Below are positions 27,402 to 58,300 of a stretch of 64,000 nucleotides of DNA, piece after piece. Under the pieces are notes generated by a model. The model saw nothing but the letters and a program-made list of their open reading frames with translations. It was not told the DNA's origin and did not search any database. Positions within the stretch are counted from its first letter, which is position 1, and each line of letters starts with the position of its first letter. Source of the stretch: a virus; the IMG/VR virus record IMGVR_UViG_3300023109_000014, positions 1 through 64,000 of that record; one strand, given 5' to 3'. The translations under genes and the position numbers were made by a program.

Positions 27402-27418
27402 TTTAACAAAGATAAAAT

Positions 27419-28033: not shown

Positions 28034-28056
28034 TATAGGAGATAAATTATATAATT

Positions 28057-29196: not shown

Positions 29197-29222
29197 GTTT
29201 CTTTGTTCCCCCCACTCCTCAA

Positions 29223-29260
29223 AAGGGTCTGTGCCAAGTGCGCAGGCCCTTTTGTTTTTT
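29223..29260 (+). terminator. rho-independent terminator
   Basis: aagggtctgtgc-caagt-gcgcaggccctt followed by T-run. Confidence 0.8.
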
Positions 29261-29313
29261 CACAAGAAATGGACTTTTGTGTATGATATATATATAATAT
29301 ATAAAGGATAACT

Positions 29314-29712: not shown

Positions 29713-29724
29713 TGCTTAAAAATA

Positions 29725-30758: not shown

Positions 30759-30760
30759 TT

Positions 30761-32253: not shown

Positions 32254-32338
32254 TTTTTTTTAAAAAAAAAGTTCTCATTTTAGTTTTGCCTATGTAATAT
32301 AGGGTAACCCCTAATCTTACAATCAAAATTTAATAATT

Positions 32339-37377: not shown

Positions 37378-40300
37378 ATGGCGCAAGAAAATATTAGAGT
37401 AAGAGTTAAGGCGATTGGGTTAGATCAAGACATCGCCAACCAAGCAAAAATAGGCGAAAAGAAAATAAAACCTATTAAGCTTTCTTTGAATGAAAAAGGG
37501 CTTGTGCAACCTCTCGGTAGAATTACTGGGCAAATGGGAGAATTCGAGAAATCGATGGATGCTGCGGTTGCTCGTGTATTCGCTTTTGGAGCTGCTGTTT
37601 CTGTTATAAATGGAGTATCTAGCGCATTAAAAGCTATGGCGCAATCTGCAATGGAAGTTCAAAAAGCTTTGAAGGATATCAATGTTATTATGAATATGTC
37701 AGAATCTGCTTTGCAAAATTTTGGCGGAGCTTTATTTGATGTTGCTAGAGATACTGCTTCATCATTTGATGATATTTCTGCAGCAGCAACTGAATTTGCC
37801 AGACAAGGCTTAAGCGCTGACGAAACACTGCAGAGAATTGCTGACGCTATGACCTTAACGAGATTGTCTGGCATGGACTCTGTAGAAGCTGTAAATGCTT
37901 TAACCGCTGCAATTAATGGTTTTAATGACGCAGCAATCAATTCCTCTGATATTGTGAATAGGCTAGCTAATGTTGATGCCGCATTCGCTGTATCTTCAAA
38001 AGATTTAGCTGATGGATTGGCGCGAGCAGGGGCAACTGCCCAAGCTGCAAAAGTAGAATTTAACGAGCTGCTTGCTGCAGTTACAAGCGTTCAACAGCAA
38101 ACCGCTAGAGGTGGCGCAGTGATTGGAAACTCTTTTAAAAGTATATTTACTAGGCTTCAGAGATCGAGCGTAAAAGAAGCTATGGAGGCTATAGGTGTCG
38201 CGACCCAGGATGCTTCTGGTTCATTTAGGTCTGGAATGGCAATCTTGCAAGATTATGCTAGAGGTTATGATAATTTATCTGACTCGCAAAAAGCTGCCAC
38301 TGACGAATTAGTTGCTGGGGTTTTTCAGGTTAATAATTTAAAAGCTTTGATTAAAGATTTAAATAGTGAGTTTAGTATATACGATCAAGCTTTAAAAACT
38401 GCAAACAGTAGTACAAACGAAGCCACTCAAAGAAATCAAGAATTGAACAAGACTATGTCGGCTTTGATGACTCAAACTGGTCTATCTATTAAAGAGCTTG
38501 CTGCAGGCCTTGGAGAAATGACCCTTGGGCCTGGGATCGAGAAAGTTCTCGAAACAGTAAAATCTTTATCTGACGGTTTAAATAACTTAATAGGTGAAGA
38601 TACTGGCTCAAGCATAGGTAAAACTCTTTTAAAAGGCATTGGTAGTTTTATTAGTGGTCCTGGGATGGTTTTAATTGGGGGTGCGTTTATTAAATTATTT
38701 GCGTTTGTCGCACAACAAGGTTCGAGTGCACTAAAATCAATCTTTTCCATCAATAGCGAAACTAAAAGACAAGAAGGTTTGCAGGCAGCAATTCTGCAAA
38801 TATTAATGAATGAAGAAAGTATTCGACAGAAAATCCTGGGTGGCGCCGCAAGTCAAGCGGCGAAAGAGCAAACGATTTTAAGCGTTTTAAAAAAGCAAAC
38901 CATGGAAAGGCAGGCGCAAGATGCGCTTTTAAAAAAAATCGCTGCGTCGTCTACATTAGCAAATGTCGCAATAAGTAATCAAGGAACCATTGTTCCGCAT
39001 GGTAGGGGTTCTAGAGCTGCCGCAGGCAGAAAAGATCTTGGAATGTCTAAGGGTTATGTTCCTCCAGCCACTAAAGATTCTAAATTTATTCCATCTTTCG
39101 AGGCTGAACAAAAAGATATAGAGAGAAGGGTTGGAGGCGCAACTAAATCAGCTTCTCCAGTTTTAATAAAAGGTTTTCAAAAAACTAAAACGCAAAAACA
39201 AGATGTCGTCGCTAATACGGACGAGGTTGTTGTTGAAAATTATATGGGTTCGGGCGCTTCCGCCATTTTAAACAAAAACATGGCTCAAAGGTTTAGTTTT
39301 GATAATGGGGTAGAGAAATATTACTCTGCTGCAGAATATGGTTCAAAAAATTTCTATTCGTCTGGCTATGTTCCTAATTTCAAAGCAACAAATAAGCAGG
39401 TAATTAAATTAAATGCAGCTGGACAAGGAATTATAACTGCAGAAGCTGGAAAGTCAGAAGTTGGTAAAAATCATACAGTTACTGCTTCTTCAGTTTTTGA
39501 TGGCCCAGTTCCTCCAGCATTTAAAGGTTCAAAATTTGAAGCAAGAAATTTTACAGTTGGAAGATTAGAACAATCTAAAGGAGGCTTTCATAGTATTGTA
39601 GATAAGCATATGACTACTGCATTAAGAGACGTTGCCCAAGATGTTGTTCCAGGTGGAAAGGTTAAAGGTTCTGGACCCCTGAGTGATTATTTAGATAAAT
39701 CTGCAGGACCTCAATTTACTGGAAGAATTTTTGAGGCAACCTTAAATTATATTAAAAATTCAGTAGTTAAAAATGATCCTGGAACAGCTGGCTGGGATTT
39801 TCCTGGAGGACAGTTTCAAAAAAATCTAACTACTGCATTTAATCTTGATTCAAGAAAAGGAAAAAATGTCGATGCAAAAGTGTCATCCAGCAAAAAAAAC
39901 ATAGGAAGCGGCATTAAGAAAATTATTGACTCTAGGGGTGGTTATAAAAATTTAAAGCAGTACAAAGATTTTGAAAAACAAAATAAAACTAAAAAAGCTT
40001 CTGCAGTTGGAAAACCAAGAGCTTCAAAAGGAATGATTCCATCAAATACCGCAAGTGTTCCGAATTTTGTATCCACTTGGGGTAAACCAGAATTGCTTAA
40101 AAAGATTAGAGAAAAGAATTTATCAAGAGCTCAAAAAGATATTAAAGGTTTTGACGGCATGAAGGCAACTAATGAATGGAGCGGTCAATTACCTATTATA
40201 CAAGTCGCCGATAAAAAAACTGGAACAACAACTAGATTTACTTATGGTAAGGGAGAGTATGATAACGAAAATAAGACTGACATTTTATATTCAGAAAGAG

Positions 40301-43300
40301 CTAAAGGGGTAGACGTAAACGATCCTTCTATGAAAGGTGGAGCTAATAGAAATTTTGATAAAATCGCAGAGTTTACAGGAAAAAGAAGTTGGAAAAATAA
40401 AGAGATTCATAGCACCTTTGACCAAATTCGAGCTTCTTCAGGCAAGACTCCTTGGGAAACCATAATCAATTCATTCCCGCAATTAAAACAAAGAGTTAAG
40501 CCAGGAATGTCAACCTCGGGAACTTTTCAAATTGGTACTGATGAAATCGAATATAGAAATATTAAATCTTTAAAAACTAAAGTTAATAAATGGGTTAAAG
40601 AAAATGGTATAGAGTCATTTAATAATTGGTCAGAAGCAAATTTAGGCTTTAATACAAAAAACTCAATTTTAAGCGGAACTGCATCTGGCGAATATTTTGC
40701 TATGGATGCATATACAAAAATATTAAAAAAAGGAGACAAGCATTTTAATCGAGATGAAAAAGCTGGCTTTTATTCTCAGGGAACTGTCCCTAATTTTATT
40801 ATTGATAAGAATACTGAAAGATCTATATTGCTTAAACAATGGCAGGGAAAACTTGATCAAGCCAGAACTCTCGCTAAATCAGGAAAACCCAGAGCTCAAA
40901 CAGACCCTCAAATTAGCCAACTGAATGGCGAAGCAAATGGAATATGGAGCCAGATTGTTAAAATGCAATCCCCTCAAAAGCCAAAAACCAAAAACGAAAA
41001 AAGCCACTCTGAAGGTTTGATCCCTAACTTCTCTAGTTATTTAGATGCTGGCAGCAATGTTGATAAAAGTTTTGGAGGAGGGATTGTTCCTAATTTTGTC
41101 AAGGTTGGCGAAACAAATCTAGAGAGAGACCGCCTTTTAAAGCAATGGCAAGGCAAACTTGCACAAGCAAAAACCTTATCTCAATCGGGTAAACCCAGAG
41201 CTCAAATAGATCCTCAAATTAGCCAGCTTAACGCAGAGGCAAATGGGGTATGGAGCCAAATCCAAAGTTTAAAAACTTCAAAAAAAGAAAAAACAGGAAA
41301 ATTAGGAAAAGGTTCTACGCTTAGAAGATCTGAGGGTCTTGTTCCCGCTTTGGCAAAAGGTGGAATACCAAACTTTAGCGAAGATAAGATGCGTGAAGAA
41401 ACGTTAAGTAGGACAATATCGAAAATGTCTGAAGGTTTAGTTCCCAACTTTGCTCTCAAAAGAAATGCTGGACTAAGAAAGTTTTACGATTTTGACGAAA
41501 CTTTAGGAACGTATTCTAAAAACGTTAAATCTAAGGATTTATTTCAAGCGGAGTCAGCAGGGCTTGCGAAACCAACCCCTCTCGCAAAAGAACTTGAGGG
41601 GCAAGCCGTAACTATTTTAACCGCAAGAGCAAAGCAGTCAACTCCATTTATTGAAGAAAAATTAAAGAAGTGGGGTATTAATCCTGAAAAGATTATGACT
41701 ACTGCGGATATGTTTAATAATCTTAAAATTGCTAATGACGGGTCTGGAAAAATTATTAAGGCTCAAGGAGGAAGAATCTCTGGTTATAGAAATTTAAAAC
41801 CTGCCGAGAAAAAAGCTATTCTTCTTGAAAGAATATGGAAAAAACAAGGAGGTCAATACGATTTAATTGATGATGCGATTGAAAACATCGAAGCAATTAA
41901 AAACTTAAGGAATGAAAATATAACTGGCACTCATTATCAATTTAGTGGTCAGCATTCTGGAAGAGGTAGTGGGAATGCCGAAGGTTTAGTTCCCAACTTT
42001 GTTCAATCAGAAAATACTCAAAAAGATCTTGTCCCCAATTTTGCTGCAAAAAGCATGCCTGTTCCTGGTTATTTAGAAAAAGTTTCCAGAGAAATTCAGT
42101 CTGCAGGGGGTAGTGCTCAAATTGTTGGTGGGGCTCCTAGAGATTTTTTAATGGGAAAATTTCCTAAAGATTGGGATGTAGAGGTTTTTGGTTTAGAACA
42201 AGAAAAGTTGCAAAAAATATTGTCTCCATCTTTAACTAAAGAAGGTTTAGTTGGTAAAGATTTTGGAGTATTCAAAGCTAAAAGTGGAGGTCAAGATTTT
42301 GAGTTCTCGATGCCAAGAAGAGAAAAGAAAGTGGGTGTTGGGCATAGAGGTTTTGAGGTTGAAGTAGATCCTAACATGGGGCGTAAAGAAGCTGCACAAA
42401 GAAGAGATTTAACAATCAATTCTATTTCTTACGACCCCCTTACAAAGAAATTTATTGACCCCTTGGGGGGGAGGAAGGATTTACAAGACGGCATCATGAA
42501 GCCTACGTCTCCCAGATTTAAAGAAGACCCTTTGAGAGTGTTAAGATCTATGCAGATGGCTGGAAGGTTTAATCTTTCTGCAGATAAAGAATTGGTCAAC
42601 TATTCTCGAGAAATGACTGGACAATTTAAAGACCTTCCGAAAGAAAGAGTGAGAGAAGAATGGATGAAATGGGCATCTAAATCTACCAATCCAGAAAAAG
42701 GTTTACAATTTTTAAAAGAGTCTGGGTGGATAAAACATTTTCCTGAAATTGATCAATTGCAGGGAGTTCCCCAGTCTCCCAAGCATCACCCTGAAGGAGA
42801 TGTGTTTAATCACACAAAGCTTGTGACGAATGCAATGGCGAATAATAAAAACTGGCAAATGCTTCCAGAGAAAGAGAGGGGTAAATTAATGTTTTCTGCT
42901 TTGACTCATGATTTTGGAAAAGTTACAAATACACAAATAAGTAAAGATGGCGCTATAACTTCTTATGGGCACGAGAAAGCTGGAGTAGCACCAATGAAAA
43001 GTTTCTTGGGTAGGATTATGTCTCAAGGAGAAGCGAGTAAATTATCTAAAGACTTAACGCCTTTTGTTGAAAGACATATGTTTCACTCAAATTTTCCTCA
43101 GAATTTGACGCAGAAATCTATTAATAGGTTGACTAAGGACGTAGGGGACCTAAGCAAGTTTCAAATATTGCTTGAATCTGACATGGGTAAAAATTTATCG
43201 GATGATGTAACTGCCAGAAAATTTACTCAGGTTGACGAAAAAAATATTAATAAGATGAGTTCAATCGCAAAAGAAAGTGGAATATATAAAGAGCCGCCTA

Positions 43301-46300
43301 AGCCGATTGTACAAGGTAGGGATTTGATGCAAGAAAAATTAATAGAACCTGGCCCTCAAATGGGTTCTGTATTAAAACATCTAGAAGAAGCTCAAATAAG
43401 TGGAGAGTTTAAAACTAAAAAAGGGGGAATTGAATATTTTAAAAATAACAAAGAAGATATATTAAAACGTATTAATAAATTTACCCCAAAAGGTAGAATG
43501 TTGAGAGGGAGAGCTAGCGGAGAAGTTCCAGAAAAAATAAATTATTCTCAAGGCTTGGTGCCTAATTTTGCTAGAATACCTTCTATGTTTAACGTTAAGC
43601 AAACTAAAACTGGCAAGGATTACGTAATGCAAAAAGATTTGGAACTTGCTAAGACGCAGTTTCCTGACGCAACTTTTAAACAATGGGGCAAGAATCCAAA
43701 GATGCATTTCATTTCTGGACATAAACCTCAAAATAAAATAACGAAGGACAAGGTATCCTTCGCGTCTAACGTAGACTTGCAGGAGTTCGGTAGCTTTGCC
43801 GCCCAAAAAGGATATCCAGAAGTAATGGGAGCGATTGTTAAGTCAACTCAAGTTAAACAGAATTCTTCAGGTAATAGAAATTATGATCGATTGACATCTT
43901 GGAAAAACAAAAAAGAAGAAGTTCCTAATCAAATAAATATTAAAGATGCCCAATCTCTCTCTACTGAAGACTACAAATCTTTTCCAATGGGTAAAGCTGG
44001 AGCAGATTTAAAAAGATTATATAATCCTGACAGTTTTGATAATGTATCTAATACAATTTTTACTTCTTCAGCACCTCAAAAAGCTCTTGCAAAATCCGCA
44101 GAGAAATTCACTACAAATAAGATAGAAAATTCTGAGGATATATTAAATTTTGTTAAGAAATCTCGTGGGTCAGAATCAATTTCAACCGAACAAATAAATA
44201 AATTATATCAAGAGTTTGCTGAAATGAAAGGTCTTGCAGTTATGTCTGATGGACATGTGCCTAATTTTGCTTCTCCTGCTTTTAATAAATTCATAAAAGA
44301 TAATATACATAATAAAAATTATAAAAATATTTCTGATAAAGTAACTAAATTGAATCTATCTGTTGGCAATGCGTATGGAGTTGGTGGTGATATTCCTCAA
44401 GATGTTAAAATTTTAAATCGTTTAACTTCTCAATTATCTAAAGTAACAAACCCGCTCATGGGTCCAACAGGCAAAGGTTCAAGGGATAGAGTATACGAAT
44501 CAAAAGAATTTGCGCAGAAATTTAACAAAACTGAGTATGACAAAATCTCAAAAGAAATTACAACATTGCAAAAAGAAAAGTTTCAATTAAGTCGCCCATC
44601 AAATCCAGACAAAAATCCAGACAGAGTTAAAAAAATTGAGTCTCAAATTTTAAAGAAAAAAGAGCAGGCAACTAATACGCAATTTTATAAAGCTAAATCT
44701 GAAGCGGTGAAGAAAGAAGATCAAGGAATAGAAAGGTTGTTTCAAGAAAAATTTACCGTCCAAAAAGATCAAATTGTTTCGCCTACAGGTAAAACTGTAT
44801 CAACTAAAGATTTAAATTCTATTGAAGAAGAGTTTAATGAATATATGTTTGCCAAGCAACAAAAAAGAACTAATACAAACGAAGAATTAGTCTTGCCCAA
44901 TTTTTCTGTTACTGCCCCAGAAACAGTCCCAAACTTTGTCAACGTAAAAGCAATGAGAGAGCTTGCAAAAAGAGGTGCAACTGAAGGAGAGAGAGCTGCC
45001 GCTCAAAACATGTTAGCAAAGCATGGGTTTAAGAGTAAAACAATCACATCTAGAAGTTGGCACGATAAAATATTTTTAGAAAATTATATTAAAAATAACG
45101 GTCCTAAGTCTGACCTTGAGATGTTAATTAAGAAAGGTTATGCTGAGAAAGAATTAGTTTCCCTAAAAAAACAATATCAAAATGACCCTCAATCTGTTAA
45201 AATTGCAAATCACGGTATTGTTCCAAGCTTCTCAAAACAAAAAGACCGAATAAGTGAAGCGGATTACGAAACCCAATTGTATAAAGAAAACTTTAAAGAC
45301 TCATCTCAAAAACAAAACGTCAACAATTTTAGCTTTGTCGATGACAGAACAACCTCTTCTTCAGGCTCTCAAAGTTTTGCAGAGGGTATGGTTTCTAAAG
45401 ACGTAAGCTCTAGCAGTTCTTCTGTAGACTCCAAAAGTTTTGCAAGTGGAACTGTTTCCAATATTTCTTCGCAAGAAACTGAAACTTTAGCAACTGGGTT
45501 TATTCCAAACTTTGGTATTCAATCTGACCGAATCAAGGAAGCGAGTCAAGCCTCTCAACTTTACGGACAAAATGTTGGGTATAAAGATACTCAAGTTAAA
45601 AAATTAGAAATTAACGGAAAGAAAGAGAGAGTTGTAGTAAACAATAAAGAAAAATTTTACTCTACTGGTTCAGAAGTTCAAAAAGCTTTTAGCCTCCCTT
45701 TTAAACCTAATGGAGGAATGGTTTTGCCTCCAAAAAATACTAAAGTCGGAAAAGAAAGAAGTAGAGAGTTTAGTAGTTTGGTTAATTCTTTTTCTAGCGG
45801 CGTAACTCCTACTGCCGATTCTTCTCCTCCTACTTTGGCTTATGGAGCTATGCCAAATTTCGCGGTATTCAGAAAATATTCTCCAAACACCTTAAGGAAA
45901 TCCAAGATTAAGGATTATTCTAACGAAGAGTTTTCTTCGATAAGTAGAGCTTTATCGGAATTTAACCTTATGTCTATGGGGTCTAGAGGAGGTTTGATGG
46001 GTCAAAAATTAAAGTCTGAGTCTCGAGCAGAAGGTTTATTTAAGACTAAGACGCAAGAGCAAAAAGATGATTTTAGACAATTTTTTAATTCAAGAGAGTT
46101 TAGAAGCTTAACAAAGAATGTTCAGGAAAAACTTAAAGTTGATTTTCCCGATTTATCCAGGGGTTACGGTTATAACGTTGACCCTTTTGCTGTGAGGCAA
46201 CTCGAGAATGTAAGCGCTGGAACAGTTCCAAATTATGCAAATTTAAGTTTATATAGAGGGCAAAAAAAATCAACTATAGATAAACCCAGCGTTGGTAAAA

Positions 46301-49300
46301 ATATGCCAAGCTTTGGCGGCGCACAAACTCCTCGAGACATTATTAATATAATTCAAAATTTTGTTAAGTCTCACGTCAGCGGCCCTCTCTCTGGAAGAAG
46401 AGATATTGGAGAGTTAGATAATGTTGCTCCGTCTGGCGCTACCTCATTTAGCACTTCAGAAACTGTCGCTAAGAAATTTGCTGGAGGAGGTTTAAATAAG
46501 CCTGCAAAAGATAATATACTTTCCACTCAGGTTCCAGAAAAAAATGTATTTAATAAAAAGAAAATTCTTAAATTATTAAATCGAGGAGCTAATCCAAAAA
46601 AAGGCCAATACCCAGAAGTAGAAAAATTTAAAAAAGCGATGGCTTCTGGACAAATTCAAAAATGGGCAGAGCAAGCTGGGGGACTTTTCTTGAATGTTTC
46701 TGGCAGAAGAAATGATAAGTCTCTTCAGAAATTTAATAAAACGGAATACGGTCGAAAAGAGTATGATTTTTATGATAGACCTATGAGTTCAATTGTGCCT
46801 GAGTCTGATATTGGTTGGAATCCTAGTGGAACTAAACAAATCAGTCCCCACGAGAATGAGGTTATGCAAATTTTTGACGAAGGAATTGTACCTAATTTTT
46901 CTGGAGCAGCTGGTTCTGCAGGCAGGCAAAAAAATAAAGCCTATCAGGACGACCCCGACAATATTATAGATTTAAGGCCGTTTACTACATTTGATTATTC
47001 TTTATTATTTCCCCAAAGAGGTGCTGGAAAATCTAAAGATGAAACATTAAGAGGGAGTGGGCCATATGCAAAAAAATATCAAAGTCAATTTCTTGTTGGT
47101 TGGAATGCAAAAGGAATAAATCCAAAAATCCCTAAAGAAGCTGATAAGATCGCAAAAATAGGAGACGCTGTAGAAAGAGATGTTAAAACTATAGTTAAAG
47201 CTCATTCTGAAAATTTCGTTAGAGCTTTTGGCGAAGAAAAGATTAGAATACAGGATTCGTCTGCAATTGATGGAGTTGTTCAAAAACATTTTAACGAAGG
47301 AACTTTAACGGCGATGGCTGGGAACGCTTTTGAGGCCGCTGCAAATACAGCTTTTAGCAACGTACCTGTAAACGCGGGAGGAGGAGATTTTGATGTTAGA
47401 GGCCCAACCGATCAGTTAAGGAGGTTTTTTAATTGGCCTTCTGCTCACGGATCCGTAGGAGATTTTAAGGCCAACTCTCAGTCGGGAGATATTAAAGCTA
47501 GCATGGCGGACAAGATATTAAAGGAGCTTGATTATAGAGGTTTATTATCTGGACAAGTTGCAAAAGAAAAAGCTGACTTTGATCAGTATGATAAAGATAA
47601 GGCGGCAAAAAACAAAGCAGCTACCATCTCTCGATTTAAAAATGTTCCTGGGTCAAATTCTTTAAGAGGAGGGATTACCCAAAAAGCTCCAAAAGGTTCA
47701 GCACCTTCGGAATCAAACCAGCAACATTCTAAAATCGTCGGCTCTAGTCGATCGGGTCAGGAACAAGAGGATTTCTACTTTTCTCAAGATAAAAACTTAT
47801 CTCTCGGTTGGGTTCCAAACTTTAAAATAAATCAAAATCTTGCGGGAGATTCTGTTCCAAGTTTTATTGATAAACCTAAGGAGCAGTTAAATAATTCGCT
47901 AAAAGTTAAAAGCGAAAAAGTTGACTTGCAAAAATCCCTTAAAGCAAAAAAAGGTACTTCTGTAGATTCTCAGAACGAGCTCAGAAGTCAAAATGTATCT
48001 AACGCTTCGGCGAAAAAGTTTGAGTCAATCATTAATAATCGATTTATTGATTCGCAGGAAAACAAAAAGTTTTCTTCTAGCTCTTTCGCAGATTCCGCTC
48101 AGTCTAAAAGTTTACAATTTTCTCGATCATCCAGCAACCTTTCTTCAGATTTTCTTAATACTCGATCTGAAAATAAAGTTTCGAAAGACGCTTCTGTGGA
48201 TTCGCAAACTTACTCGCAGGGCATGGTGTCGAAAGACGCTTCTGTGGATTCGCAAACTTACTCGCAGGGCATGGTGTCGAAAGATAACCAAGTGCCTTCT
48301 AAATCTTTAGAAGCCTCTAAATTTGATTTGACTACCATACATAGGCTGAGAGATAAATTTTTGTCAAGAGAGGAAGCTGTACAGAAAAATATTTCGCCTA
48401 GTGAGCGTAAGCTTGCGTTGCCTAAAGGTAAAAAGCAAGAAGGCAACTCTGAGTTAATCAATTCAATTTATTCTCACGGCAAAGATTTCTCTGCGGATAG
48501 GTTATCTAATGGTTACATTCCTAACTTTGCAATTAATGCAAATAATTATTCAAAGACTAATGATGCTTTAGGTTCCGCAATTAAAAGAGAAAATCAGGCG
48601 GGAATTCCAATGAATAAAATTAGAGTGGGTCAAAGCAATCGATTGAAAAATGAAAAAAATCCTGGAGGAGTTGGAGTGTTTAATACAATTGATGAACCAA
48701 GAGGTTTAAATCAAGGTATTAGTAGGTCTATATCTCAAGGAATCAATCCTCATAAACATGGCCTTGTTTCTTCTGGTTATGTCCCCCAACAAACAATTAA
48801 CGTTCCTAATTTTGTTGGAAGGTTTATTCCTAAAATGTTTAAAGGCGGAAGTAAGGGGGGTAAAGGTGTTGACGCTCCAATTCCAACTTCGGGTGGAGGT
48901 GGAGGCGGAATGTTAGGGGGTGGCGGAGGCTTAATGAATACTATATTTATGGGGCAAATGATGTTTGGAGGCATAGAAGGTAAAACTGGTACTGCAGGAG
49001 GATATGCGGCAGATGCTACTGGAGACGCTTTGCAGATTGCAGGAATAACATCAATGATCACAGATAAAAAGAAGTGGGTTGCTTTAGCTGCAACAGTTGG
49101 AGCTTTGAATGGAATGCTTGACCAATATTCAAAAAGCTTAAAAATGCAGGGAGAGCAAATCCAGAAGAATATTCAAATTAATGGAAAAGCTATTGAGAGC
49201 GCAACTCAAGTTGTTTCTGCCCAAACAAGACTTAATTCTGCAATAGAATCTGGCAACACAGACAATATATCTAAAGCTATTGAATCCCTCCAAAAAGAAA

Positions 49301-52300
49301 TAGAAAGGTTTCCAACAAATGGAAGCGACGCTATAATTAAACTTCGCAGCGACCTTGTTGGCGCTGGTGGAGATGTAGAGATTATGTCGAAAGCTTTAGA
49401 ATCATTTTCTCAATCTGCTCTTAAGGTTTCTAAATTAGGAGAACTAACAGTTAAAACTCAAGCTGTTAACGAAAATAGAGAAGGTTTAATTTTTGGAATG
49501 GGGCCTTCTCAACTGCCTGAATGGATGGGTGGAGCTAAAGGAGATTTAAAAGAAGAGGGTTCAAATGAAATTAGGCAAATAGGTAGAGAATCTGTGACTA
49601 ACTTAGCGCTTGCAGAAGATCAGGTTTCAGCATTTTCTTCTAAAATTTCAAAAATTGATTTTACAAAAATGTCTCCCGATGATATTAAGTCTACGATTAA
49701 AGAGTTTTCTAGAACTTTAGACGAAGAAACTAGAGTTTTGTTCGATCAGATTGTTGATAATGTTCCTGATGATGCTGTTGTCGATTTTACCATGGGTATT
49801 GGCGAGCAATTAAAGCTAAGAAAATCTTCCATAGAGGCTGGCAAGGCTGTTGGAAAAACATCTCAAGCTCTTGGTAATTTAAAAAGTACAATTGTAAATT
49901 TATCTACAGCTGTCAGCAGAAGTATATCAGAATTAAATTCTAATATTTCTAAAGCTTTTGATATTGCTGAAAACCAATTAAATTCTGAATTGAGTATTAT
50001 GACAGGGATGAATTATATTAGCCCTAAGGAAGCGAATGAAACTAAGGAACAGTTTGAGGTTACAAGAATCGAAAGTGAAGCTGCTGCAGGCACTGAATTT
50101 GAGGTATCTAAATTCGTATCTCAATTAATTAAAGATACGAAACTTGACGATGTAGAGGGTAAGGATGCATCTATTTTTTCTGGAAAACTTGGAAATATTC
50201 TTTCAAAAATGGGAGAGCGAGCAAATCCATTGCAAGACGAAGATCCGAGGTTTATGGCAAATGAAATAGTTTCTGCTATAAGTCAAATGGATCCAGCAGA
50301 CCGAACTCAAGGCGAACAAGAATTATTAGATGCAGTCAAGCAGATTGGGGACAAGGCCGCTTCTCAAATTACTTTATTAAAACAGGCTAACGAATTGGCT
50401 TCTAGACAGCAAACAATGCAGAGCAGAATGAACCTGCAAAATGCTCAAATCGATATGGAGAGAGACGGCGATACGCTATCTCAATTTTCATGGTCTCAAG
50501 GCTTAGAACCTAGAACTCAGCTAGATAAAGATATGCAGACTCGCTCTAGTATGGATATGATTGGTTTACTTGAGCCTTTATTTGGACCTAGTGAAGATCT
50601 GACTAAAATGAAGCAAGACGTAGGCGTTCAAAATGCAATTGGCAATGTACAAAGAATACTTCTTGGAATGGGTATTGAAAACGATGCTGGTTTTGATGCT
50701 GGCGCTAATGAAGATATTAGTATGCAAACAATGATTTCTGAAATGCAAAAAGTTTTAGCTCAAGGAGATTTAAATAAAGGGCAAGAAAAAATCGTAAACT
50801 ACATGGTTGGCCAATTAAAAAAGCAGGAGGCCGCTATTTCTGCAACCCCGCAAAATACAGAAGATCTAAAGAGACAGACTGTTCAGTCTACATCTGATGT
50901 TCTCGGTGTTGATTTAAGCGAAGTTGGTATTGATTTAGAGTCTTTGGATTTTAGTTCCCTCAATGCTATTGCTGATCAACTCGCAGAAGATGGCGTTGAG
51001 ATAAAATATTTATCAAGCATCGAAGAAAATACGAAAGTTATGGCTGCAAAATTAAATGATGCCCAAGGAATTACCAAGGAAGATATAATAAGCGCTATAC
51101 AGAACATACAAATTAAAGATGCTGAAAAAGTAGAGAAAAGAAAGGAAGCTGTTAAGCAAAAAGAAGACACTCGTAGTAAAATACAAGATATTGCTATATC
51201 TGGCGCCGATGTGAAAGTTGAAGGGGGTGCAGATATAAATGTAGGCGGTAGCACTACTATTAACGCTAACCCTCAAAGTTCTCAACCTCCTCAACCGCAA
51301 TTTAATCCATTTGTACCTAACTTTGCAAAAGATGAGTCCAGCAATAATAAACAATCTCCAATGCGAGGTTTTGTGAAATCCCTTAAAAGAGATAACAATA
51401 CTGAAAACAGGGGTTTTGAAAAGTTTGATGGAAAAACTTTTACTGGCGGTAAGGCATTGCAAGTGGCAAATTATTATCCTGGAGCTATCGACTCAATCTA
51501 TAGAGAAGTTGACGTTTTGGAAAATAGAGGTGTGCAGAATGCTATTAGCAAAATACAGTTAACTGTTCCATCTACATCTAACTCGACCACAAAATATCAA
51601 GGCCCAGTAGTTACAAATATGATGGACGAAGGAAGCGTTTCTGCCCAAAGCTATTTGAATAAAATTAACAACGTACATAATTTAAAACATTCTGATTCAA
51701 ATTTTAGTATTGCTGGCGCAGTTCCTAATTTTGCATCCTCTTCTCAGTCTCGCGGTTCAGTTAATGCTTCTGTGAGAAATGTTAATGCTAAATCAATTGC
51801 AAATAATATTTCAAGAATAAATCAAAAAAGTGATTGGAAGATGGCAAGAGGGGAAGAGAGCGCTGGAAAAACTTATTCTTCTGGAGCTGCATTAAGGGTT
51901 GCGAATTATTACCCAGAAACAAAAGAAATGTTAGACCAGGAAATTTCAATTCTTAAAAGTAGGGGTATAGATAGCCCATTAAGCCAAGTTCAGTTAACTG
52001 TTCCAGACGAAAACACTACAACTTTTCAAAATAAGAATACATTAGATCCTACAATATCGAATCGATTTGATGATGGTTCTGTATCAATATCAAATTATAC
52101 AAAAAAAATTAGGAACGCTCACAAGGTAGGGTTGCTGACTCCCCAGAAACCAGCAAGCGTCGGAGAGCATGCTCGTGAAAGGGCAAAAAATTTAGTTAAT
52201 AACGAACAAGCTTTAAGGAATCAGCTGCACGAAAACATTCTTAAGAAAAGAAAATCCGTTGTTCTCTCCGAGGAGTTAAAATCCAGAAATGAAAGTATAG

Positions 52301-55300
52301 ATGAGCCTGAGGCAAAAAAAATAAATATTACTGAGAAAGAGGGTTTGAAGTATGAAGGAGGAACATTTTCTGCGGGAGCTGCTTTGAGGGTTGCAAAATA
52401 TTATCCTGGAGCAACAGAATCTATATTTAGGGAAATTCGATCTTTGGAAGAAAAAGGCGTTTCAAGCCCTCTTGATCAAGTCCAGCTTACTATTCCAGAA
52501 AAAGGTTCGAAAGAATTTTCTTCTTATAACGGACCAGTGGTTACGAACAAAATTGATGAAGGAGGAGTAAGTTCTAAAAATTATCTTAATAAAATTAGAA
52601 GCGTTCATAAGGTAACTCCTAATGAAGGGCAATTTGCTTCTGTAGGAATGCCTAATATTGATGCGAAAAGTCAATATACTAGAGGGGCAATAAATAGCTT
52701 TTCTCAATTCGATTATGTTCCTAATTTTAGCAAAACAGAGGGTCGAGCAAAGGGAATTATTCGTTCTGCTAGAGAGCTAAGTATTGCTATGGAAAAAATG
52801 AATGAGCTTCCTGAAAATATTACCCCTTCTCAAATTGCGGAATTTAATCAAAAGGGGTCTGCCGTATTAGAAAATATTAATAGCTTAGGCAACCCAAACC
52901 AGCAAACTCTCACAAAAACACAAAAAGCTCTTGTTTCAAAAATGCAGGATCCAGAAGTTGTTAAAACTTTTCAGTCCATTGGGATAGATAACTTTAATTC
53001 TGATCTTGCTCAATTTGTTAACCCTGACAGTCTTGGAGAACCTCCTCAACCAGCTAGATTTAACCCTTTAGTTATTCAAAGTGCCGAAACAGGGCGGGCG
53101 GTTGAAAGCGGCACAAAGGTACTTCCGAGAGATATTAAGAGCGGTAAGTTTAACGTTGCGCAAGTTATGCTTAATGATGAAAATTTAGATGAATTTATTG
53201 AACCTTCAGAATCTAAAAATATTCAAGCAGTCGTTCAGTCTTCTCAAGACAGCGGGCAAAAGTTTAACGAAAATAAGAAAAAGTTACAAGAAAAGCGGCC
53301 AAATTATGCTAGTGGTAAGGGTACTCGCTATACTGATGAACCTACCGCTCCAAAAGCTGGAACACTAACTACCGCAAAGAAAGAAGGTTTTGTTGGTATA
53401 GAGTCTCACGGCCCTTCAAAAGCGCTCGCAACCCAAGTGAGAAACGAGGAAAACGCTTTAAAGAACACTACAAAAGAATTAGTTAAGGATGGTGAAGGAG
53501 GATTCATGAGAAATGCTTCCTCTTGGATTCGCAAAAAATTACAAACTATAAGGTTTCTTGATGGCAGCTCCAACGAGCAGAAACAAGGGATGTCTATAGA
53601 AAAAGAAAATGCTGTATTAAAGCAAATAGAAGATGATGGAATTGTTCGATACCCATCAGATGATAGCGCTTCCCCTTTAGAGAAATCGCCAGAATTTAAA
53701 CAACAAATTTCTGAAGTTTTAGACAATCAAGATTTGTCTTCTCAGGAAAGGGGTACGTCCCAAATTGAACAGCAAACAGAAACTTGGAGAAAAAGAGAGC
53801 ACTCTCTTACAGAAAAAATTCAGAGAGCTACAAAAGCAAGACAACTCAAAAGACAAAGAAGCAGGGCTCAAGAGCTAGGTTCTGCCGAACGACAAAGAAA
53901 AACAAATTTAGATGCCAAAAATAAAAGACAAGAAGCTAAAGAAAGAGAGAAGCGGAAGGTTCGAGAAATCCAAGAAAGGCAAATTGATGAAGGTTTAGGT
54001 CGACAGAAAATTGGCACCAATTCAGAAACTGGAAAAAGTATTTATCATTACGATAACCCTCAACTTAGAGAATTAAGCTCTTGGGATAAGTTGAAGCATC
54101 ACATGCTAAAATTTGTTGGGTTAGACGAGGGTTCGTATTACGAAGAGGTTGAACGTCAAAATAAGATCGTAAGAAACAAACAAATGCAGGATATTGCTAC
54201 TGGCGGAATTAATACTCAGCAATCTAAGTCTATGTCAACTCTTGAGAAGCTTAAATTAATGTCTGAACGCGATGTTCTAATTGAGTCTAGCGAGTTTGCA
54301 AAAGAAACAGACGGACAAAAAATATTAAGAGGAACTCCAGGCGAGCGAAGAAAATCTTCTTTGTTTGACATTCAACAAAAAGCAGGGGTCGGCGGAAAGC
54401 CTGCGGTTATTAATCTTGCGGGAGATATTTCTAGCCAAACGAATATCGCTGGCAGTTCATCTAAGTCTAGTAGTTTGACTCAATTATCTCAATCTAGAGC
54501 TGCCGAAGCTCAGCCCACGTTAATGGATAAGATAAGGAACGTTAAAAAACAACTGTCTGAAAAATTTGGAAAAGTAACATTAAGTCCAACAAGCTCGGCC
54601 TCTGTTCTGCAAGAGTATGATATTCTTGATTCTAGTGGAAGGGTCGTAGCTAAAATGGGTTCCAATGGTGAGGTGCTACCTTTTGAAGTTGATAATTCAC
54701 CTGTTATATATAACGCTCAGGGTCAAAAAATAGGAGCGGATAAAGTAATTCAAGTTCAGGAGAAACAGTTTGCGTTGCAAAGCTCTCCCATGAATGATGG
54801 CCAGTTATCTACAAGCGTTAATCAATCTGACGTGTTAGAACAAAAAGCTTTATTTGATATTGGTGAAAAAATTAAAAGCGGAGCGCCTATTTCTTCAGCG
54901 GAAACTAATTTAGTTCAAAATTGGGCAAATAAAAATTCAGAACTTGTCGGCTCGATTAATGCAGACGATGTAGATAACGCTCTTTTGTTAGAAAATAACG
55001 TTGTCGATAATAAGCAAATTAGAATTGGTAGGATGGGCGAGGAACTTTCAAATTTAACATCTGTTACGAATGCAGCAAATGCAGAAGCTCAGGTAGAGTC
55101 TTTAATTAAAGACCCTCAGTTCGTTGATAGCGCAACTAGGACAATGCCTGGAGATAACTTGCATTTGCAAAGAGTTTTTGATTCTATAGATGATAAAAAT
55201 AGGAAAACGAAAAGTACCCCAATCAAAACAGAGACTGCGTTGGATAGGGTTAAGAGCAATGCTAATATAAATCAAAGAGCAAATGCTTTAAGCAAAGAAA

Positions 55301-58300
55301 TGGTATCTAGAGATATAAGAAAAAATTCATCCCTAGAACTTCAGAAAAGATTAAGACTAAACAAAGGTTTTGATACAACCGAATTAAATACAAAGTTTTC
55401 CAACGAAAAATCCAGGCTTGAGGAGTTATTGAAAAATCCAAGTATTCCTTCTGATAAGAAAGTTGGCCTAAACGAAGATTTAAAAATATTGACAAGAAAT
55501 CGGAATGAGCATTTAAATACTCTTAGACCTGGTTTTATGGAGAGAAAGGAAATATTAATAAACGAACAGTTTAAAAATATTATGAGAGACACTGGTTTAA
55601 TGTCGTTGACTGGAGGTGGCGCAGACGGAGTTTCTTCTAACGATCCAGTTAATCAGTTTATGAAAGATAAGCTTGGGCCGAAAGTTTGGAACATGGATGG
55701 AAATTTTGTTAAAACTAAACAGCATTTGGCCAGCGCAATTTTTGGCGAAGAGCATAAATTTAATAAAGAGTTGACTGAGTCATTAGTTGATAGGCAGTTA
55801 AGATCGACAATATTAAATACAAAAAGTGAAACTTTTGGGTTGAGTGATCATATGCGTTCTAACCTTATAGACATGGATAAATTTGTAGGTATGGGTTTAG
55901 GCGATGAATTTTTGAACAGTGCAAAAAAACAAGGATTACATCAATCAGATATAGGCGTTTCTAAAATGGTGGACTTTATGGATCTTATGGATCCTGCTGG
56001 CAATAAAATTGACGGAGAGGGTAAACAAAAATTAAAAAAACAAGGCATTCAAAAGATATTTCAAAAAATCCAGAACGGAGAATTATTTTCTCAAACTGCG
56101 ATTAGAGGAAGAACAGTTCCTATAATACCTAAAGATGCAGAAACTGTCTTAAAGAACCTTTCTGGAGAAAGTACATCCGCACAAATAAACGCTGCGAGAT
56201 TAATTGAAAATGAACAGAAGATATCTTCTTTAGCTGCAGAAAAAGGAAGTGGCGTAATTAGCCAGTCAAATTTAAAAATCGCTGCAAGTGAATTAGAGGC
56301 GGGAGATATTAACGAAAATGGTATAGACTTTGACAAAGTTAGGATGAGCTCTGAAGAAATTTCAAACGTTCAATCTATGATGGATTCTATTGACGCAGAC
56401 CCCGATCAAAAAACAGATCAAAGAGTTTCTCAATTGTCTGAAGCTCTTGATCCACAATCAAGCAACGAATCTGTGCGAAGTTTATCTCAATTAAAATCTC
56501 TTGAATTAGAGGCTGACAGAGCTGCAGAAAAAGCAGAATTTAAAAAGTTATTAAGTTTGGGTAGCGGGGCTACTCCTGAAGATGTAGGTAGAATGTCTGA
56601 CCTGCTTCAGTTACATGACCAAAAAATAGAATTAGGTAGATCTTCTAATTTTGATTTAGAAGACGTAAATCAAGCGAGAACAACTATTAAAAATACCGCC
56701 AAGGAAAAAGTTGCAACAGCTAGCTCCACTATTGGTAAAGAACTTTCTCAAAAGAGTGAGCCTGGACAAGCACAAAAAAGAGCTATAGAGGAATTAGAAA
56801 AAATTGATCAAGCTGATCCTGTTGAGCAGGCTGAAGCTATACGTTCAACAAATCAAGAGGCAGAGGCAAAGGTTCGGTCAGCGAGTTTGGATCAGGGAGA
56901 AGATATAGTTCAACAAACAGTTGATCAGGTCGAAGATGTTGATGAAACATGGAAGGAAACTAAGGAGTCTCACATGTCTGATCCAGATAGAGCTGCTTCT
57001 GCTGGAAGACTGGAAGAATTGGGTGAAAAGTATCGAGCAATAATCCAATCCGCTACAGATAGTAAAGCATGGAGAACGACAAGGTCATTAACTAAAAATG
57101 TTCTAGGTGCTGGAATGGGACTTGTTCATCTTCCAGGAAAAGCTAAAGATTTAACAACTGAAGCTTATGGAAGCGTTAAGGAAAGAATTGATGCATTTAA
57201 AAAGGCTCAGGCAGAGAAATTTAATAAAAGAAAAGCAGAACAAATAAAGCATCCAGACGGAAAATCTTCAGGAAATTTTGAACAGCAAGAGAAAAGCAGA
57301 GTAATTGACGCTAAACTAGCTCAGCTGCCAAACACGAAAACAAGCAGAGGGGATTCAAGCTTGGACGATAGCCTTCAGAAAACAAAAAGATTTCATATTG
57401 ATGGAGAAAATATGACACCCTTTGAGCAAGATCTTCATGATAGAATGACTGGCAAAGTTAGAGTCAAGGATTCTGCAGGCAAAACAGTAGAAACTTTTTA
57501 CGATAAAAAAATTGCATCAGTGATTACAAACTCAGATGTTGGTAGAATTTCCAGGGTTGAGGATTCTATTACTGGTAGCTCTTATACTAATCGAGGTTTA
57601 AAGTTGAGAAATCTTCTTCCTGGAACTGCAAGTAGAAACATTGAGGGTCGATCTTTTATTCCTCCAGCTTTGCAGGAGATCGCATCGCTAGGTGGTCTTG
57701 ATGGTCAAGGTAGCAAATTAAAGCTTGATAAAGAAGGCCTTGCTCAAAGAGCTAAAAATATTGGCTCAGAAATATTTACTGGAAAACTTAGCTCTCCCGT
57801 TCAGAGCCTTTTTTCTACTAAAGAATTTCAGACTCAACTTGCGGAAACTAAATCTAGCGGAGCTCATGTAGCAATTCCTGAAGAATTTTCAAAAACCGTA
57901 AAATACGGAAAAAAGGGAGAAGCTAGTGTTTTAGATATAGATGGTGCTGCAGATGAACTTATAAAAGAAACAAGATTGATTGATCATGTTGGAGATGATG
58001 GCAAGCTAACTAGTTTTTCTTCAGATGAATTTCAAGCTTTCAGGGAATCAGAATTTCAAAAAATAGAACAAAGATTTGCGGGCGTTGATAATCCTGCAGA
58101 TCCAGTTCAGAACGAACAAAGAATAACTCAAATTAACGAACAAAAAGAAATGTTCGATAATAAAATTCTTGCCAATAATGCAGTTGATGAATCTGGCCAA
58201 GTTGTTGGTAGAAACACATTAACCTCAGAAGCCGCTCGAAAAAGAATTGCAAACATCCAAAAAATGTCGGTATCTGATGGTATGATTAGAAAGCAAAAGG

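What the first reader, a model, noticed from the sequence alone, without database searches (positions are those of the whole stretch)
41452..41988. HAD phosphatase module adjacent to the CCA enzyme: a two-step RNA end-healing kit
Seen: DxDxT (FYDFDETL), ILTAR, a conserved Lys and DDxxxN, all four HAD motifs within ~170 aa, immediately N-terminal to the CCA module. Established: capless HADs of this pattern include the T4 Pnkp 3'-phosphatase used in tRNA repair. Inference: it removes 3'-phosphates so the neighbouring CCA enzyme can extend the tRNA.
Basis: partly seen in the sequence, partly recalled or inferred. Interest (0 to 1): 0.75.

Follow-up and report, generated by a model that had tools for sequence, protein, structure and literature searches.

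The report
Pnkp-like phosphatase cassette in tape measure
A small, apparently active phosphatase that most resembles the RNA-end-healing phosphatase of phage T4 sits as a swappable cassette inside a giant phage tail protein next to a tRNA CCA-repair enzyme, so the phage may bring ready-made RNA-repair enzymes into its host, but the two cassettes are not tied together in related phages.

Summary
Observation confirmed. Window 41452-41988 encodes a 179-aa cassette of a 10,437-aa tape measure protein (TMP). All four HAD motifs (DFDET, LTAR, AEKK, DDxxxN) are invariant or nearly so in 11 relatives, and dN/dS is 0.02 against a sister phage.

Interpretation partly supported. The HAD-to-CCA order recurs in a second, separate HAD clade (P0012). 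It also recurs in natural 2H-WYL-HAD_PNKP-CCA fusion proteins. However, at least six complete related TMPs have the HAD without any CCA module, and two CCA-bearing TMP fragments have a different upstream cassette. The record holds no kinase or ligase. The substrate is untested.

Best reading: an autonomous, tail-delivered Pnkp-type phosphomonoesterase, probably acting on RNA 3' ends. A nucleotidase role is not excluded.

This scan reached the same conclusion earlier on another genome (e1-5854324).

The parts
37378..64000 (+). Giant tape measure protein ORF. It runs off the window and ends at 68691 of the full record (10,437 aa). The N-terminal TMP core is followed by about 20 cassettes bounded by G-x-[VI]-P-N-F.
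   Evidence: (PF10145 E 3.6e-28 at aa 122-307)
41431..41455 (+). Upstream boundary motif E-G-L-V-P-N-F. It is the left copy of a direct repeat: 24 of 25 nt identical to the right copy, the first 22 exact.
   Evidence: family D1; copies 549 nt apart
41452..41988 (+). HAD (DxDxT) phosphatase cassette, 179 aa, with a T4 Pnkp-type fold
41488..41502 (+). Motif I, D-F-D-E-T: predicted nucleophile D13 and acid/base D15
   Evidence: In register with T4 D165/D167 in hhalign.
41617..41628 (+). Motif II, L-T-A-R: T57 and R59 invariant, corresponding to T4 S211-G-R213
41707..41796 (+). Variable three-strand insert between motifs II and III, at the C2-cap position. It is absent or much shortened in the cassettes of P0003/P0004, L004-L006, P0011 and P0012.
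   Evidence: alignment gap; strands E91-94, E101-103, E112-114; short variant folds without it
41803..41814 (+). Motif III, A-E-K-K: K120/K121 invariant, corresponding to T4 K258
41869..41886 (+). Motif IV, D-D-A-I-E-N: predicted Mg2+ ligands D140/D141, corresponding to T4 D277/D278. The same DDxxxN occurs in the HAD_PNKP domain of the CCA fusion proteins.
41980..42004 (+). Downstream boundary motif E-G-L-V-P-N-F, right copy of the direct repeat
41989..42042 (+). Eighteen residues between the HAD and CCA cassettes: two VPNF motifs and a 10-residue spacer
42043..43557 (+). Neighbouring class II CCA-adding enzyme with an HD domain. It is context for this finding and was the subject of another finding.

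Best explanation
Shown:
- The cassette is a folded HAD-superfamily (DxDxT) phosphatase of the T4 Pnkp structural type with every catalytic residue conserved, so it most likely is an active Mg2+-dependent phosphomonoesterase.
- It has a minimal core with almost no cap.
- It is built into the tape measure protein as a self-contained cassette between G-x-VPNF motifs.
- The motif codons form a near-exact 25-nt direct repeat on either side of it.
- Related phages carry the cassette in different cassette contexts.

Inferred:
- D13 forms the aspartyl-phosphate intermediate and D15 is the acid/base.
- T57 and K120/K121 hold the phosphate, and D140/D141 hold the metal.
- The domain leaves the virion with the TMP at infection and works in the host before any phage gene is expressed.

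Most likely substrate: 3'-phosphate, 2'-phosphate or 2',3'-cyclic phosphate ends of RNA, tRNA above all. Removing them would leave the 3'-OH that a nucleotidyltransferase needs. In this phage the adjacent CCA/HD cassette could then rebuild the acceptor end.

Most relatives carry the HAD without a CCA cassette. The phosphatase must therefore be useful by itself, and the CCA enzyme is an occasional partner, not an obligate one.
For: Motifs and constraint:
- All four motifs are conserved in 11 relatives.
- dN/dS is 0.024.
- The models are confident.

Structure:
- The same order appears in the Foldseek-seeded list.
- 11 of the 50 BFVD rows listed carry a polynucleotide kinase/phosphatase name.

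Sequence links, all weak:
- phrog_415 is matched by 5 of 11 members (best E 6.7e-6). It is also matched by the T4 PseT phosphatase domain at 3e-24.
- hhalign puts motifs I and II in register with T4 D165, D167, S211 and R213 (E 0.14).
- hhalign puts motifs II-IV in register with the HAD_PNKP domain of the CCA fusions (E 0.011 and 0.0049).
- Motif spacing is like T4: D-to-S/T 44 against 46 residues, K-to-DD 20 against 20.

Mechanism of T4 Pnkp: passages of PMC3592404.

Coupling to CCA:
- HAD directly upstream of CCA occurs in the window, in L003 and in P0012. These lie in two separately supported HAD clades.
- P0036-P0038 are 2H-SAK / WYL / HAD_PNKP (31.5-35.6 bits, cut-off 27.6) / CCA in one chain.
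- In a sample chosen without regard to HAD (80 TMP loci), HAD occurs in 4 and CCA in 1. By a hand calculation, 2 of 4 CCA-bearing lineages with an adjacent HAD is more than a 5% base rate predicts (binomial about 0.014). This ignores shared descent.

Delivery precedent: the P23-45 TMP-fused virion RNA polymerase transcribes pre-early genes (PMC10770324, abstract).

HAD phosphatases of a Pnk-fused family and of the SAK family are described as RNA-repair 3'-phosphatases of jumbo phages (PMC7824862, passages).
Against: - No Pfam model of a polynucleotide-phosphatase HAD family matches: PF25109, PF08645 and PF10307 give nothing.
- phrog_415 is a generic HAD profile that rings in 14 of 14 control genomes.
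- The other PHROG match, phrog_1238, is labelled 'phosphoheptose isomerase'.
- The hhalign probabilities are very low (0.4-7%).
- The cassette lacks the P-loop kinase that accompanies T4-type phosphatases. No AAA_33 kinase or RNA ligase was found in the 82-kb record, which is estimated 60% complete.
- HAD occurs without CCA in L004, L005, L006, P0005, P0007 and P0013.
- CCA occurs without an adjacent HAD in P0017 and P0018.
- The CCA module has its own HD domain, which in E. coli Cca is reported to have phosphatase and cyclic phosphodiesterase activity (recalled, not from a call). The HAD may therefore be redundant for CCA repair.
- A shared fold does not fix the substrate. T4 Pnkp itself also dephosphorylates 3'-TMP (PMC3592404 passage).
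- Ejection, cleavage at VPNF and folding after passage are all untested.
Confidence: 0.45

Rival explanations
1. It is a tail-delivered nucleotidase or small-molecule phosphatase, working like class B/C acid phosphatases (AphA, e(P4)) or the phage T5 deoxynucleotidase. It would hydrolyse free 3'- or 5'-nucleotides or a phosphorylated metabolite or signal in the host at the start of infection, independently of the CCA enzyme.
For: - Foldseek ranks 5'-nucleotidase III second.
- The language-model look-alikes include clusters with the T5 dNMPase family and Acid_phosphat_B (leads only).
- BFVD rows include 'Acid phosphatase' and 'Deoxynucleoside-5'-monophosphatase'.
- Most relatives have the HAD without CCA.
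- T4 Pnkp also works on 3'-TMP (PMC3592404).
Against: - The Pnkp-type chains stand about 2 Z units above these families in two models.
- The short variants have essentially no cap to enclose a small substrate. The rule that capless HADs take macromolecules is recalled, not from a call.
- No acid-phosphatase or nucleotidase Pfam model reaches significance: PF06189 in 1 of 11 at E 0.05, and PF03767 not at all.
Confidence: 0.3
2. It is a protein phosphatase effector, working like FCP/SCP, MDP-1 or the Legionella HAD effectors Lem4 and Ceg4. It would be injected to reverse host phosphorylation, for example by defence kinases.
For: - Capless 'DD'-type HADs include protein phosphatases.
- Some related TMPs carry a cassette that looks kinase-like by eye next to the HAD, as in P0013. 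This was not tested.
Against: These matches are 4 Z units below Pnkp and within the general HAD background. No sequence link was found. The kinase-like neighbour is an untested visual impression.
Confidence: 0.1
3. It is a catalytically irrelevant filler or structural module of the tape measure protein.
For: Cassettes are gained and lost freely: only 4 of 80 family TMP loci hold it. Many neighbouring cassettes have no recognisable enzyme fold.
Against: Every catalytic residue is invariant or nearly so across 33-61% identical relatives. It survives in the 26%-identical L007 copy. dN/dS is 0.024.
Confidence: 0.03

Closest known systems
T4 polynucleotide kinase-phosphatase (PseT/Pnkp), C-terminal 3'-phosphatase domain (Pfam PF25109 HAD_PNKP; PDB 5uj0, 1ltq)
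   Same: - DxDxT acylphosphatase fold of about 145 residues with almost no cap.
- Same motif set: DxDxT, S/T-x-R, K, DD, with like spacing.
- Phage enzyme.
   Different: - 11-13% identity.
- The PF25109 model does not detect it.
- No fused P-loop kinase and no RNA ligase partner in the record.
- Basic (pI 9.6 against 5.4).
- Embedded in a tail protein, not a soluble early protein.
- Some members have a three-strand insert between motifs II and III.
Pnkp1 of the bacterial Pnkp1/Rnl/Hen1 RNA repair complex (PDB 4xrp, 4xru)
   Different: Pnkp1 is fused to a kinase and works in a complex with a ligase and Hen1. None of these partners is present here.
Fusion proteins 2H-SAK / WYL / HAD_PNKP / CCA-adding enzyme (P0036-P0038, uncultured sources)
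   Same: - A Pnkp-type HAD sits directly N-terminal to a class II CCA-adding enzyme in one polypeptide, in the same order as in the window.
- Shared T-x-R and DDxxxN motifs, in register by hhalign.
   Different: - Their HAD passes the PF25109 cut-off; the window's does not.
- They add a 2H phosphoesterase and a WYL domain.
- They have no TMP context and no VPNF motifs.
- Their CCA module is 32-39% identical to the window's.
Thermus phage P23-45 gp96: tape measure protein fused to a virion RNA polymerase (PMC10770324)
   Same: A giant TMP carries an enzyme that acts inside the host at the very start of infection (abstract).
   Different: It carries one N-terminal polymerase. It has no array of motif-bounded cassettes, no phosphatase and no CCA enzyme.
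HAD phosphatases of phage RNA repair as catalogued for jumbo phages (Pnk-fused HAD and 'Swiss Army Knife' HAD; PMC7824862)
   Same: The proposed role is the same: removal of linear 3'-phosphates after RNase attack on tRNA (passages).
   Different: Those are cytoplasmic gene products, kinase-fused or stand-alone. PF10307 (HAD_SAK_1) does not match the window's record.

Membership tests
HAD (DxDxT acylphosphatase) superfamily | Motif I DxDx[TV] at the end of strand 1 | tested here: met
   D13-F-D15-E-T follows strand E8-12. D13, F14 and D15 are invariant in 11 of 11 sequences.
HAD (DxDxT acylphosphatase) superfamily | Motif II S/T, motif III K, motif IV DD or GDxxxD | tested here: met
   T57 and K120/K121 are invariant. 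D140/D141 are at least 90% conserved.
HAD (DxDxT acylphosphatase) superfamily | Rossmann-like alpha/beta core fold | tested here: met
   Models have pLDDT 89.3 and 87.9. All 50 listed rows are HAD-type domains (judged from the entry titles), and nearly all of those listed.
T4-type Pnkp phosphatase (Pfam PF25109 HAD_PNKP) | Match to the family profile above its cut-off (27.6 bits) | tested here: not met
   No PF25109 match in the cassette, in 11 relatives, or in the six-frame search of the record. T4 PseT scores 199.8 bits.
T4-type Pnkp phosphatase (Pfam PF25109 HAD_PNKP) | Closest three-dimensional relatives are Pnkp phosphatase domains | tested here: met
T4-type Pnkp phosphatase (Pfam PF25109 HAD_PNKP) | Counterparts of T4 D165, D167, S211, K258 and D278 (PMC3592404) | tested here: met
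   The counterparts are D13, D15, T57, K120/121 and D140/141. The register is supported by hhalign, but at weak significance.
T4-type Pnkp phosphatase (Pfam PF25109 HAD_PNKP) | Fusion to, or partnership with, a P-loop 5'-kinase and an RNA ligase | tested here: not met
   No convincing Walker A cassette in the TMP. PF13671 and PF09414 are absent from the 82-kb record, which is about 60% complete.
T4-type Pnkp phosphatase (Pfam PF25109 HAD_PNKP) | Hydrolysis of polynucleotide 3'-phosphate or 2',3'-cyclic phosphate ends | not testable with these tools
   Needs an enzyme assay.
Eukaryote-type PNK3P (PF08645) | Match to the family profile | tested here: not met
   No match in the record at E up to 10, nor in the Pfam scans.
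Swiss Army Knife RNA-repair HAD (PF10307 HAD_SAK_1) | Match to the family profile | tested here: not met
   No match at E up to 10. The only link is a language-model look-alike cluster and one BFVD row at rank 31.
Phage T5 deoxynucleotidase family (PF26880) | Match to the family profile | not testable with these tools
   The family is not in the Pfam copy at hand. The only lead is a language-model look-alike cluster.
Class B/C acid phosphatases (AphA, e(P4); PF03767) | Profile match and closest fold | tested here: inconclusive
VPNF-bounded cargo cassettes of this tape measure family | Lies between two G-x-[VI]-P-N-F motifs in a TMP with a PF10145 core, and is found in varied cassette contexts in relatives | tested here: met
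   (HAD cluster c0 is present in all 15 of 17 architectures that hold a HAD, next to different neighbours). One search shows the flanking direct repeat.

The most novel reading that the evidence does not exclude
The HAD cassette, with the CCA/HD cassette where present, is a pre-made tRNA 3'-end rescue kit delivered through the tail. It would strip blocking phosphate or pyrophosphate groups from tRNA acceptor ends and rebuild CCA. That would disarm host defences that act on the tRNA 3' end: toxSAS enzymes such as CapRel and FaRel2, which pyrophosphorylate the CCA end, or acceptor-end nucleases. All this would happen before the phage has expressed a single gene. It would be a counter-defence delivered as protein through the tape measure, with the phosphatase as the commoner, stand-alone component.
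Probability: 0.15. Interest if true: 0.85.

Novelty: new variant of a known kind. Interest (0 to 1): 0.55.

Why it matters
Phage RNA repair, with T4 Pnkp plus ligase as the model, is known as a set of early-expressed cytoplasmic enzymes. Here a Pnkp-type phosphatase is part of the tail's tape measure protein, so it would arrive as protein together with the DNA. That would extend the single published case of a TMP-fused enzyme (the P23-45 virion RNA polymerase) to RNA-end chemistry.

The cassette also defines a narrow HAD family that Pfam misses: 12 hits among 1.84 billion representative proteins, nearly all inside marine phage TMPs.

The question is directly testable with a 179-aa domain that should be easy to express. 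The HAD_PNKP-CCA fusion proteins found here give an independent reason to test a coupled 'dephosphorylate, then add CCA' reaction, including on tRNA whose CCA end was pyrophosphorylated by defence toxins.

Searches for print precedent found none:
- 'tape measure protein' + 'tRNA nucleotidyltransferase'
- RNA repair, HAD phosphatase and CCA-adding terms
- 'tape measure protein' + 'haloacid dehalogenase'
- 'tape measure protein' + 'polynucleotide kinase' + 'phosphatase domain'

For these searches only titles and abstract starts were seen. The polyvalent-protein survey PMC5512222 has 0 occurrences of 'tape measure' and of 'CCA' in its main text.

Tried and rejected
Searches that gave nothing useful or only weak links:
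- Direct Pfam, NCBIfam and PDB sequence searches of the cassette gave only noise. The nearest to a HAD signal was PF11019/DUF2608 in 3 of 11 members, best E 0.041.
- tblastn against 50,697 phage records found one partial hit at E 0.2.
- The word-indexed protein search with the profile added only P0014, P0015 and P0016.
- hhalign against T4 PseT alone gave E 0.14.
- phrog_415 at first looked like a specific link to Pnkp. I rejected it as such because it rings in 14 of 14 control genomes.
- The phrog_1238 label 'phosphoheptose isomerase' was not followed up.
- I looked for a kinase or ligase to complete a heal-and-seal kit. The Walker A and KxDG regex hits in the TMP are unconvincing. PF13671 and PF09414 are absent from the record.
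- No tRNA genes are in the window.
- High pI as a sign of nucleic-acid binding was rejected, because nearly all cassettes of this TMP are basic.

Rows dropped:
- P0009 and P0016 (partial cassettes) were left out of the tree by a 110-residue filter.
- P0004 (cassette identical to P0003's), P0009, and the last 12 residues of P0008 were left out of alignment A1. Those 12 residues did not look like part of the family.
- Of 89 c2-type loci, the tool kept the best 80.
- 20 of those 80 are cut at the N-terminal side, so absence of a cassette there is not informative.

Tools and files closed:
- Supplementary files of papers were closed.
Full report
WHAT IS THERE

The window is the first 64 kb of an 82,461-bp uncultured virus record from IMG/VR, classed linear and estimated 60% complete. 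A terminase large subunit (phrog_2, E 8e-21) and a minor tail protein lie upstream.

From 37378 a single frame stays open to 68691, giving 10,437 residues. Its first 570 residues are a tape measure core (PF10145, E 3.6e-28). About 27 copies of [VILM]-P-[NS]-[FYI], mostly G-x-V-P-N-F, cut residues 570-5120 into cassettes of 11 to 840 residues.

The finding is one of these cassettes: residues 1359-1537, nt 41452-41988. The next large cassette is a class II CCA-adding enzyme with an HD domain. Its matches are PF01743 at 6e-19, phrog_2244 at 3e-68, and NF008137 at 4e-52, the last below its cut-off. Only 18 residues (two VPNF motifs and a 10-residue spacer) separate the two.

Yes.

An exhaustive phmmer search of 1.84 billion representative proteins found only 12 relatives at E up to 0.001, 11 of them at 1e-10 or better. 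Most are long proteins with the same TMP core and VPNF motifs.

In an 11-row alignment, D13, F14, D15, T57, A58, R59, K120 and K121 are invariant. D140, D141 and N145 are at least 90% conserved. A 26%-identical copy in L007 keeps D-x-D, T-A-R, K-K and D-D.

Against the sister phage L003 (94% identical protein) the cassette has 78 synonymous and 18 non-synonymous differences, dN/dS 0.024. It is a protein domain under strong constraint.

WHAT KIND OF HAD?

Sequence libraries barely see it:
- Pfam gives no significant match. PF11019 appears in 3 of 11 members, best E 0.041.
- PDB sequence searches give noise.
- PF25109, PF08645 and PF10307 give nothing even in a one-genome search.
- PHROGs gives phrog_1238 (6 of 11 members, best 3.4e-6, labelled 'phosphoheptose isomerase') and phrog_415 (5 of 11, best 6.7e-6, labelled 'polynucleotide kinase').
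- The T4 PseT phosphatase domain matches phrog_415 at 3e-24. But phrog_415 rings in all 14 control genomes, so it is a broad HAD profile and not a Pnkp marker.

Structure is more informative:
- The AlphaFold model of the window's cassette (pLDDT 89.3, pTM 0.84) has the HAD core, three short helices after motif I, and a three-strand insert between motifs II and III.
- Foldseek's best PDB match is the T4 Pnkp 3'-phosphatase (5uj0_A, E 3.3e-4).
- I repeated this with a different family member, the 148-aa short variant of L005, which lacks the insert (pLDDT 87.9). The result was 5uj0_B 12.2 (125 of 142 residues aligned), 4xrp_A 11.9 and 1ltq_A 11.7, then 4fyp_B 9.8.
- Among predicted viral structures, 22 match at E up to 0.001, and 11 of the 50 listed rows carry a polynucleotide kinase/phosphatase name.

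The catalytic residues of T4 Pnkp are named in PMC3592404 (passages): Asp165 nucleophile, Asp167 acid/base, Ser211, Lys258, Asp278. They have counterparts here with similar spacing: 44 against 46 residues from nucleophile to S/T, and 20 against 20 from K to DD. T4's S211-G-R213 corresponds to the invariant T57-A-R59.

hhalign places motifs I and II in register with T4 (E 0.14) and motifs II-IV in register with another HAD_PNKP domain (E 0.011 and 0.0049). These statistics are weak.

My reading: this is a distinct, narrow HAD family whose nearest known relatives are the T4-type polynucleotide phosphatases. It is not a member of PF25109 by that family's own test.

IS IT COUPLED TO THE CCA ENZYME?

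I tested this in four ways.

(a) Among 21 sequences that hold the HAD family (the TMP, five IMG/VR ORFs, P0002-P0016), the CCA module is found in three: the window, its sister L003 and P0012. In each it lies just downstream of the HAD. Complete TMPs L004, L005, L006, P0005, P0007 and P0013 have the HAD and no CCA. The cassette after the HAD differs from lineage to lineage.

(b) Starting from the CCA module, 79 longer proteins were found, and none holds this HAD family (best E 0.14). Only two, P0017 and P0018, are VPNF-type TMP fragments, and their upstream cassettes are not HADs.

(c) For a sample blind to both cassettes I used the conserved cassette that closes the cargo region, which I call c2 here. 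Of 89 loci found, 80 were kept:
- The HAD is present in 4 and the CCA module in 1 (the sister phage).
- Of the 60 loci whose TMP start lies inside the locus, 3 have the HAD, 0 have CCA, and 57 have neither.
- Both cassettes are therefore rare. By hand, 2 of 4 CCA-bearing lineages with an adjacent HAD is more than a 5% base rate predicts (binomial about 0.014). This figure ignores shared ancestry and rests on very small numbers.

(d) A maximum-likelihood tree of 19 HAD cassettes places the CCA-adjacent ones in two separately supported clades. The label needs at least 2 changes, and 0 of 200 bootstrap trees allow 1. The adjacency was therefore either assembled twice, or is old and was lost several times. 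The window and P0012 also share a third cassette type, c6, which fits some shared ancestry of the cargo set.

An independent argument came from the CCA search. P0036-P0038 are single proteins with the order 2H-SAK phosphoesterase, WYL, HAD_PNKP (31.5-35.6 bits, cut-off 27.6), CCA-adding enzyme. A Pnkp-type HAD directly N-terminal to a CCA enzyme is thus a recurring natural arrangement outside TMPs. It sits next to a 2H domain of the kind that opens cyclic phosphates. This makes 'dephosphorylate the 3' end, then add CCA' a reasonable pathway, but it does not show that the window's two cassettes cooperate.

HOW THE CASSETTE MOVES

The E-G-L-V-P-N-F codons on either side of the HAD form a 25-nt direct repeat, 24 of 25 identical, 549 nt apart. 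Meanwhile synonymous sites inside the cassette have diverged heavily from the sister phage (dS about 1.8). This fits exchange of whole cassettes by recombination within the motif codons, as earlier notes of this scan proposed for relatives. I did not test recombination further.

MECHANISM, WITH ITS STATUS

Shown:
- an intact, constrained HAD active site on a Pnkp-type minimal fold
- cassette architecture inside the TMP
- free combination with other cassettes

Inferred from family knowledge (PMC3592404): a Mg2+-dependent two-step reaction through aspartyl-phosphate on D13.

Inferred from context: delivery into the host with the TMP. The precedent is the P23-45 TMP-fused virion RNA polymerase, which transcribes pre-early genes (PMC10770324, abstract).

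Inferred from structure and the fusion precedent: the substrate is an RNA 3'-terminal phosphate, cyclic phosphate or 2'-phosphate. This fits the role given to HAD phosphatases in phage RNA repair (PMC7824862, passages).

Against a full heal-and-seal system:
- No kinase or ligase was found.
- A lone 3'-phosphatase cannot rejoin a cut anticodon loop.
- It makes most sense at the acceptor end, or on substrates other than tRNA.

The CCA module's own HD domain may already have phosphatase activity. This rests on my recollection of work on E. coli Cca, not on a call.

The nucleotidase rival stays open at about 0.3. The next-best folds are nucleotide-acting acid phosphatases, and the HAD is mostly found alone.

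THE BOLDEST READING NOT EXCLUDED

Defence toxins of the toxSAS type pyrophosphorylate the tRNA CCA end to stop phage production. This comes from abstracts seen in the listing: 10.1101/2024.07.05.602228, PMC11782079 and PMC9712102. A tail-delivered 3'-phosphatase, with a CCA/HD enzyme where present, could undo exactly such blocks. No evidence here bears on it beyond the fold and the neighbour.

COMPARISON AND NOVELTY

- It works like the phosphatase half of T4 Pnkp.
- It is not a member of PF25109, PF08645 or PF10307 by their profiles.
- It lacks the kinase partner.
- It sits in a structural tail protein.

I rate it a new variant of a known kind: a Pnkp-type HAD used as tail-borne cargo.

The scan had already reached the same conclusion for a 10,562-residue TMP of another genome (note e1-5854324). 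My calls reproduce that independently on this DNA and add three things:
- the HAD-blind frequency estimate
- the two-clade tree
- the HAD_PNKP-CCA fusion proteins

Literature searches (listings only) and the main text of PMC5512222 gave no description of a HAD or CCA enzyme inside a tape measure protein. Supplements were closed.

Noticed in passing
P0036, P0037, P0038 (proteins): Natural fusion proteins of 888-1008 aa with the order 2H-SAK phosphoesterase, WYL, HAD_PNKP, CCA-adding enzyme. This looks like a complete single-chain 'open the cyclic phosphate, remove the phosphate, add CCA' repair protein. Their source organisms are unknown.
   Followed up: partly
P0021, P0022, P0024, P0028, P0029, P0034, P0059, P0062 and others: By precomputed Pfam hits, CCA-adding enzymes are fused in long proteins to Phage_Mu_F (PF04233), PF18810, PF18760, ADP-ribosyl toxin (PF03496), SprT-like, cytidylyltransferase-like (PF01467) and AAA_33 kinase domains. 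CCA enzymes therefore seem to be recurrent cargo of virion-associated polyvalent proteins, not only of tape measure proteins.
   Followed up: no
window 48529-48813 (TMP aa 3718-3812) and 80 IMG/VR loci L010-L089: A conserved cassette of about 77-95 aa (invariant N-P..V.N..DE..G..QG) closes the variable cargo region in every TMP of this family examined. It is followed by the long C-terminal part. At least 89 IMG/VR contigs carry it. Most of these TMPs are 1,800-3,000 aa and have neither HAD nor CCA.
   Followed up: partly
window 41431-41455 and 41980-42004: The boundary motif codons on both sides of the HAD cassette are 24 of 25 nt identical, although synonymous sites in the cassette are near saturation against the sister phage (dS about 1.8). 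This suggests recent or recurrent recombination at the motif.
   Followed up: partly
window 45232-45513 (TMP aa 2619-2712) and 48814-51324 (aa 3813-4649): Two cassettes are acidic (pI 4.6-4.7), whereas nearly all the others have pI 9-10.5. Their role is unknown.
   Followed up: no
P0013 residues about 1023-1200; P0003 residues about 100-350: By eye, the cassettes next to or near the HAD in these related TMPs look like protein-kinase-type domains, with a glycine-rich loop followed by a lysine and a D-x-H-x-x-N stretch. This was not tested with any tool.
   Followed up: no
L007 (IMGVR_UViG_3300035204_001773), ORF residues 1265-1500: A distant copy of the HAD cassette (26% identical) has larger inserts and E-D-Y-D-E-N as motif I. 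It sits in a TMP of more than 4,800 aa that shares almost no other cassette with the window's TMP.
   Followed up: partly
window 1-64000: No tRNA or tmRNA gene was found in the window, although the phage carries a tRNA CCA enzyme.
   Followed up: no
window 23601-33610: Five large ORFs of 303-679 aa in the head and tail region have no PHROG match at E up to 0.001. The structural module is very divergent from catalogued phages.
   Followed up: no
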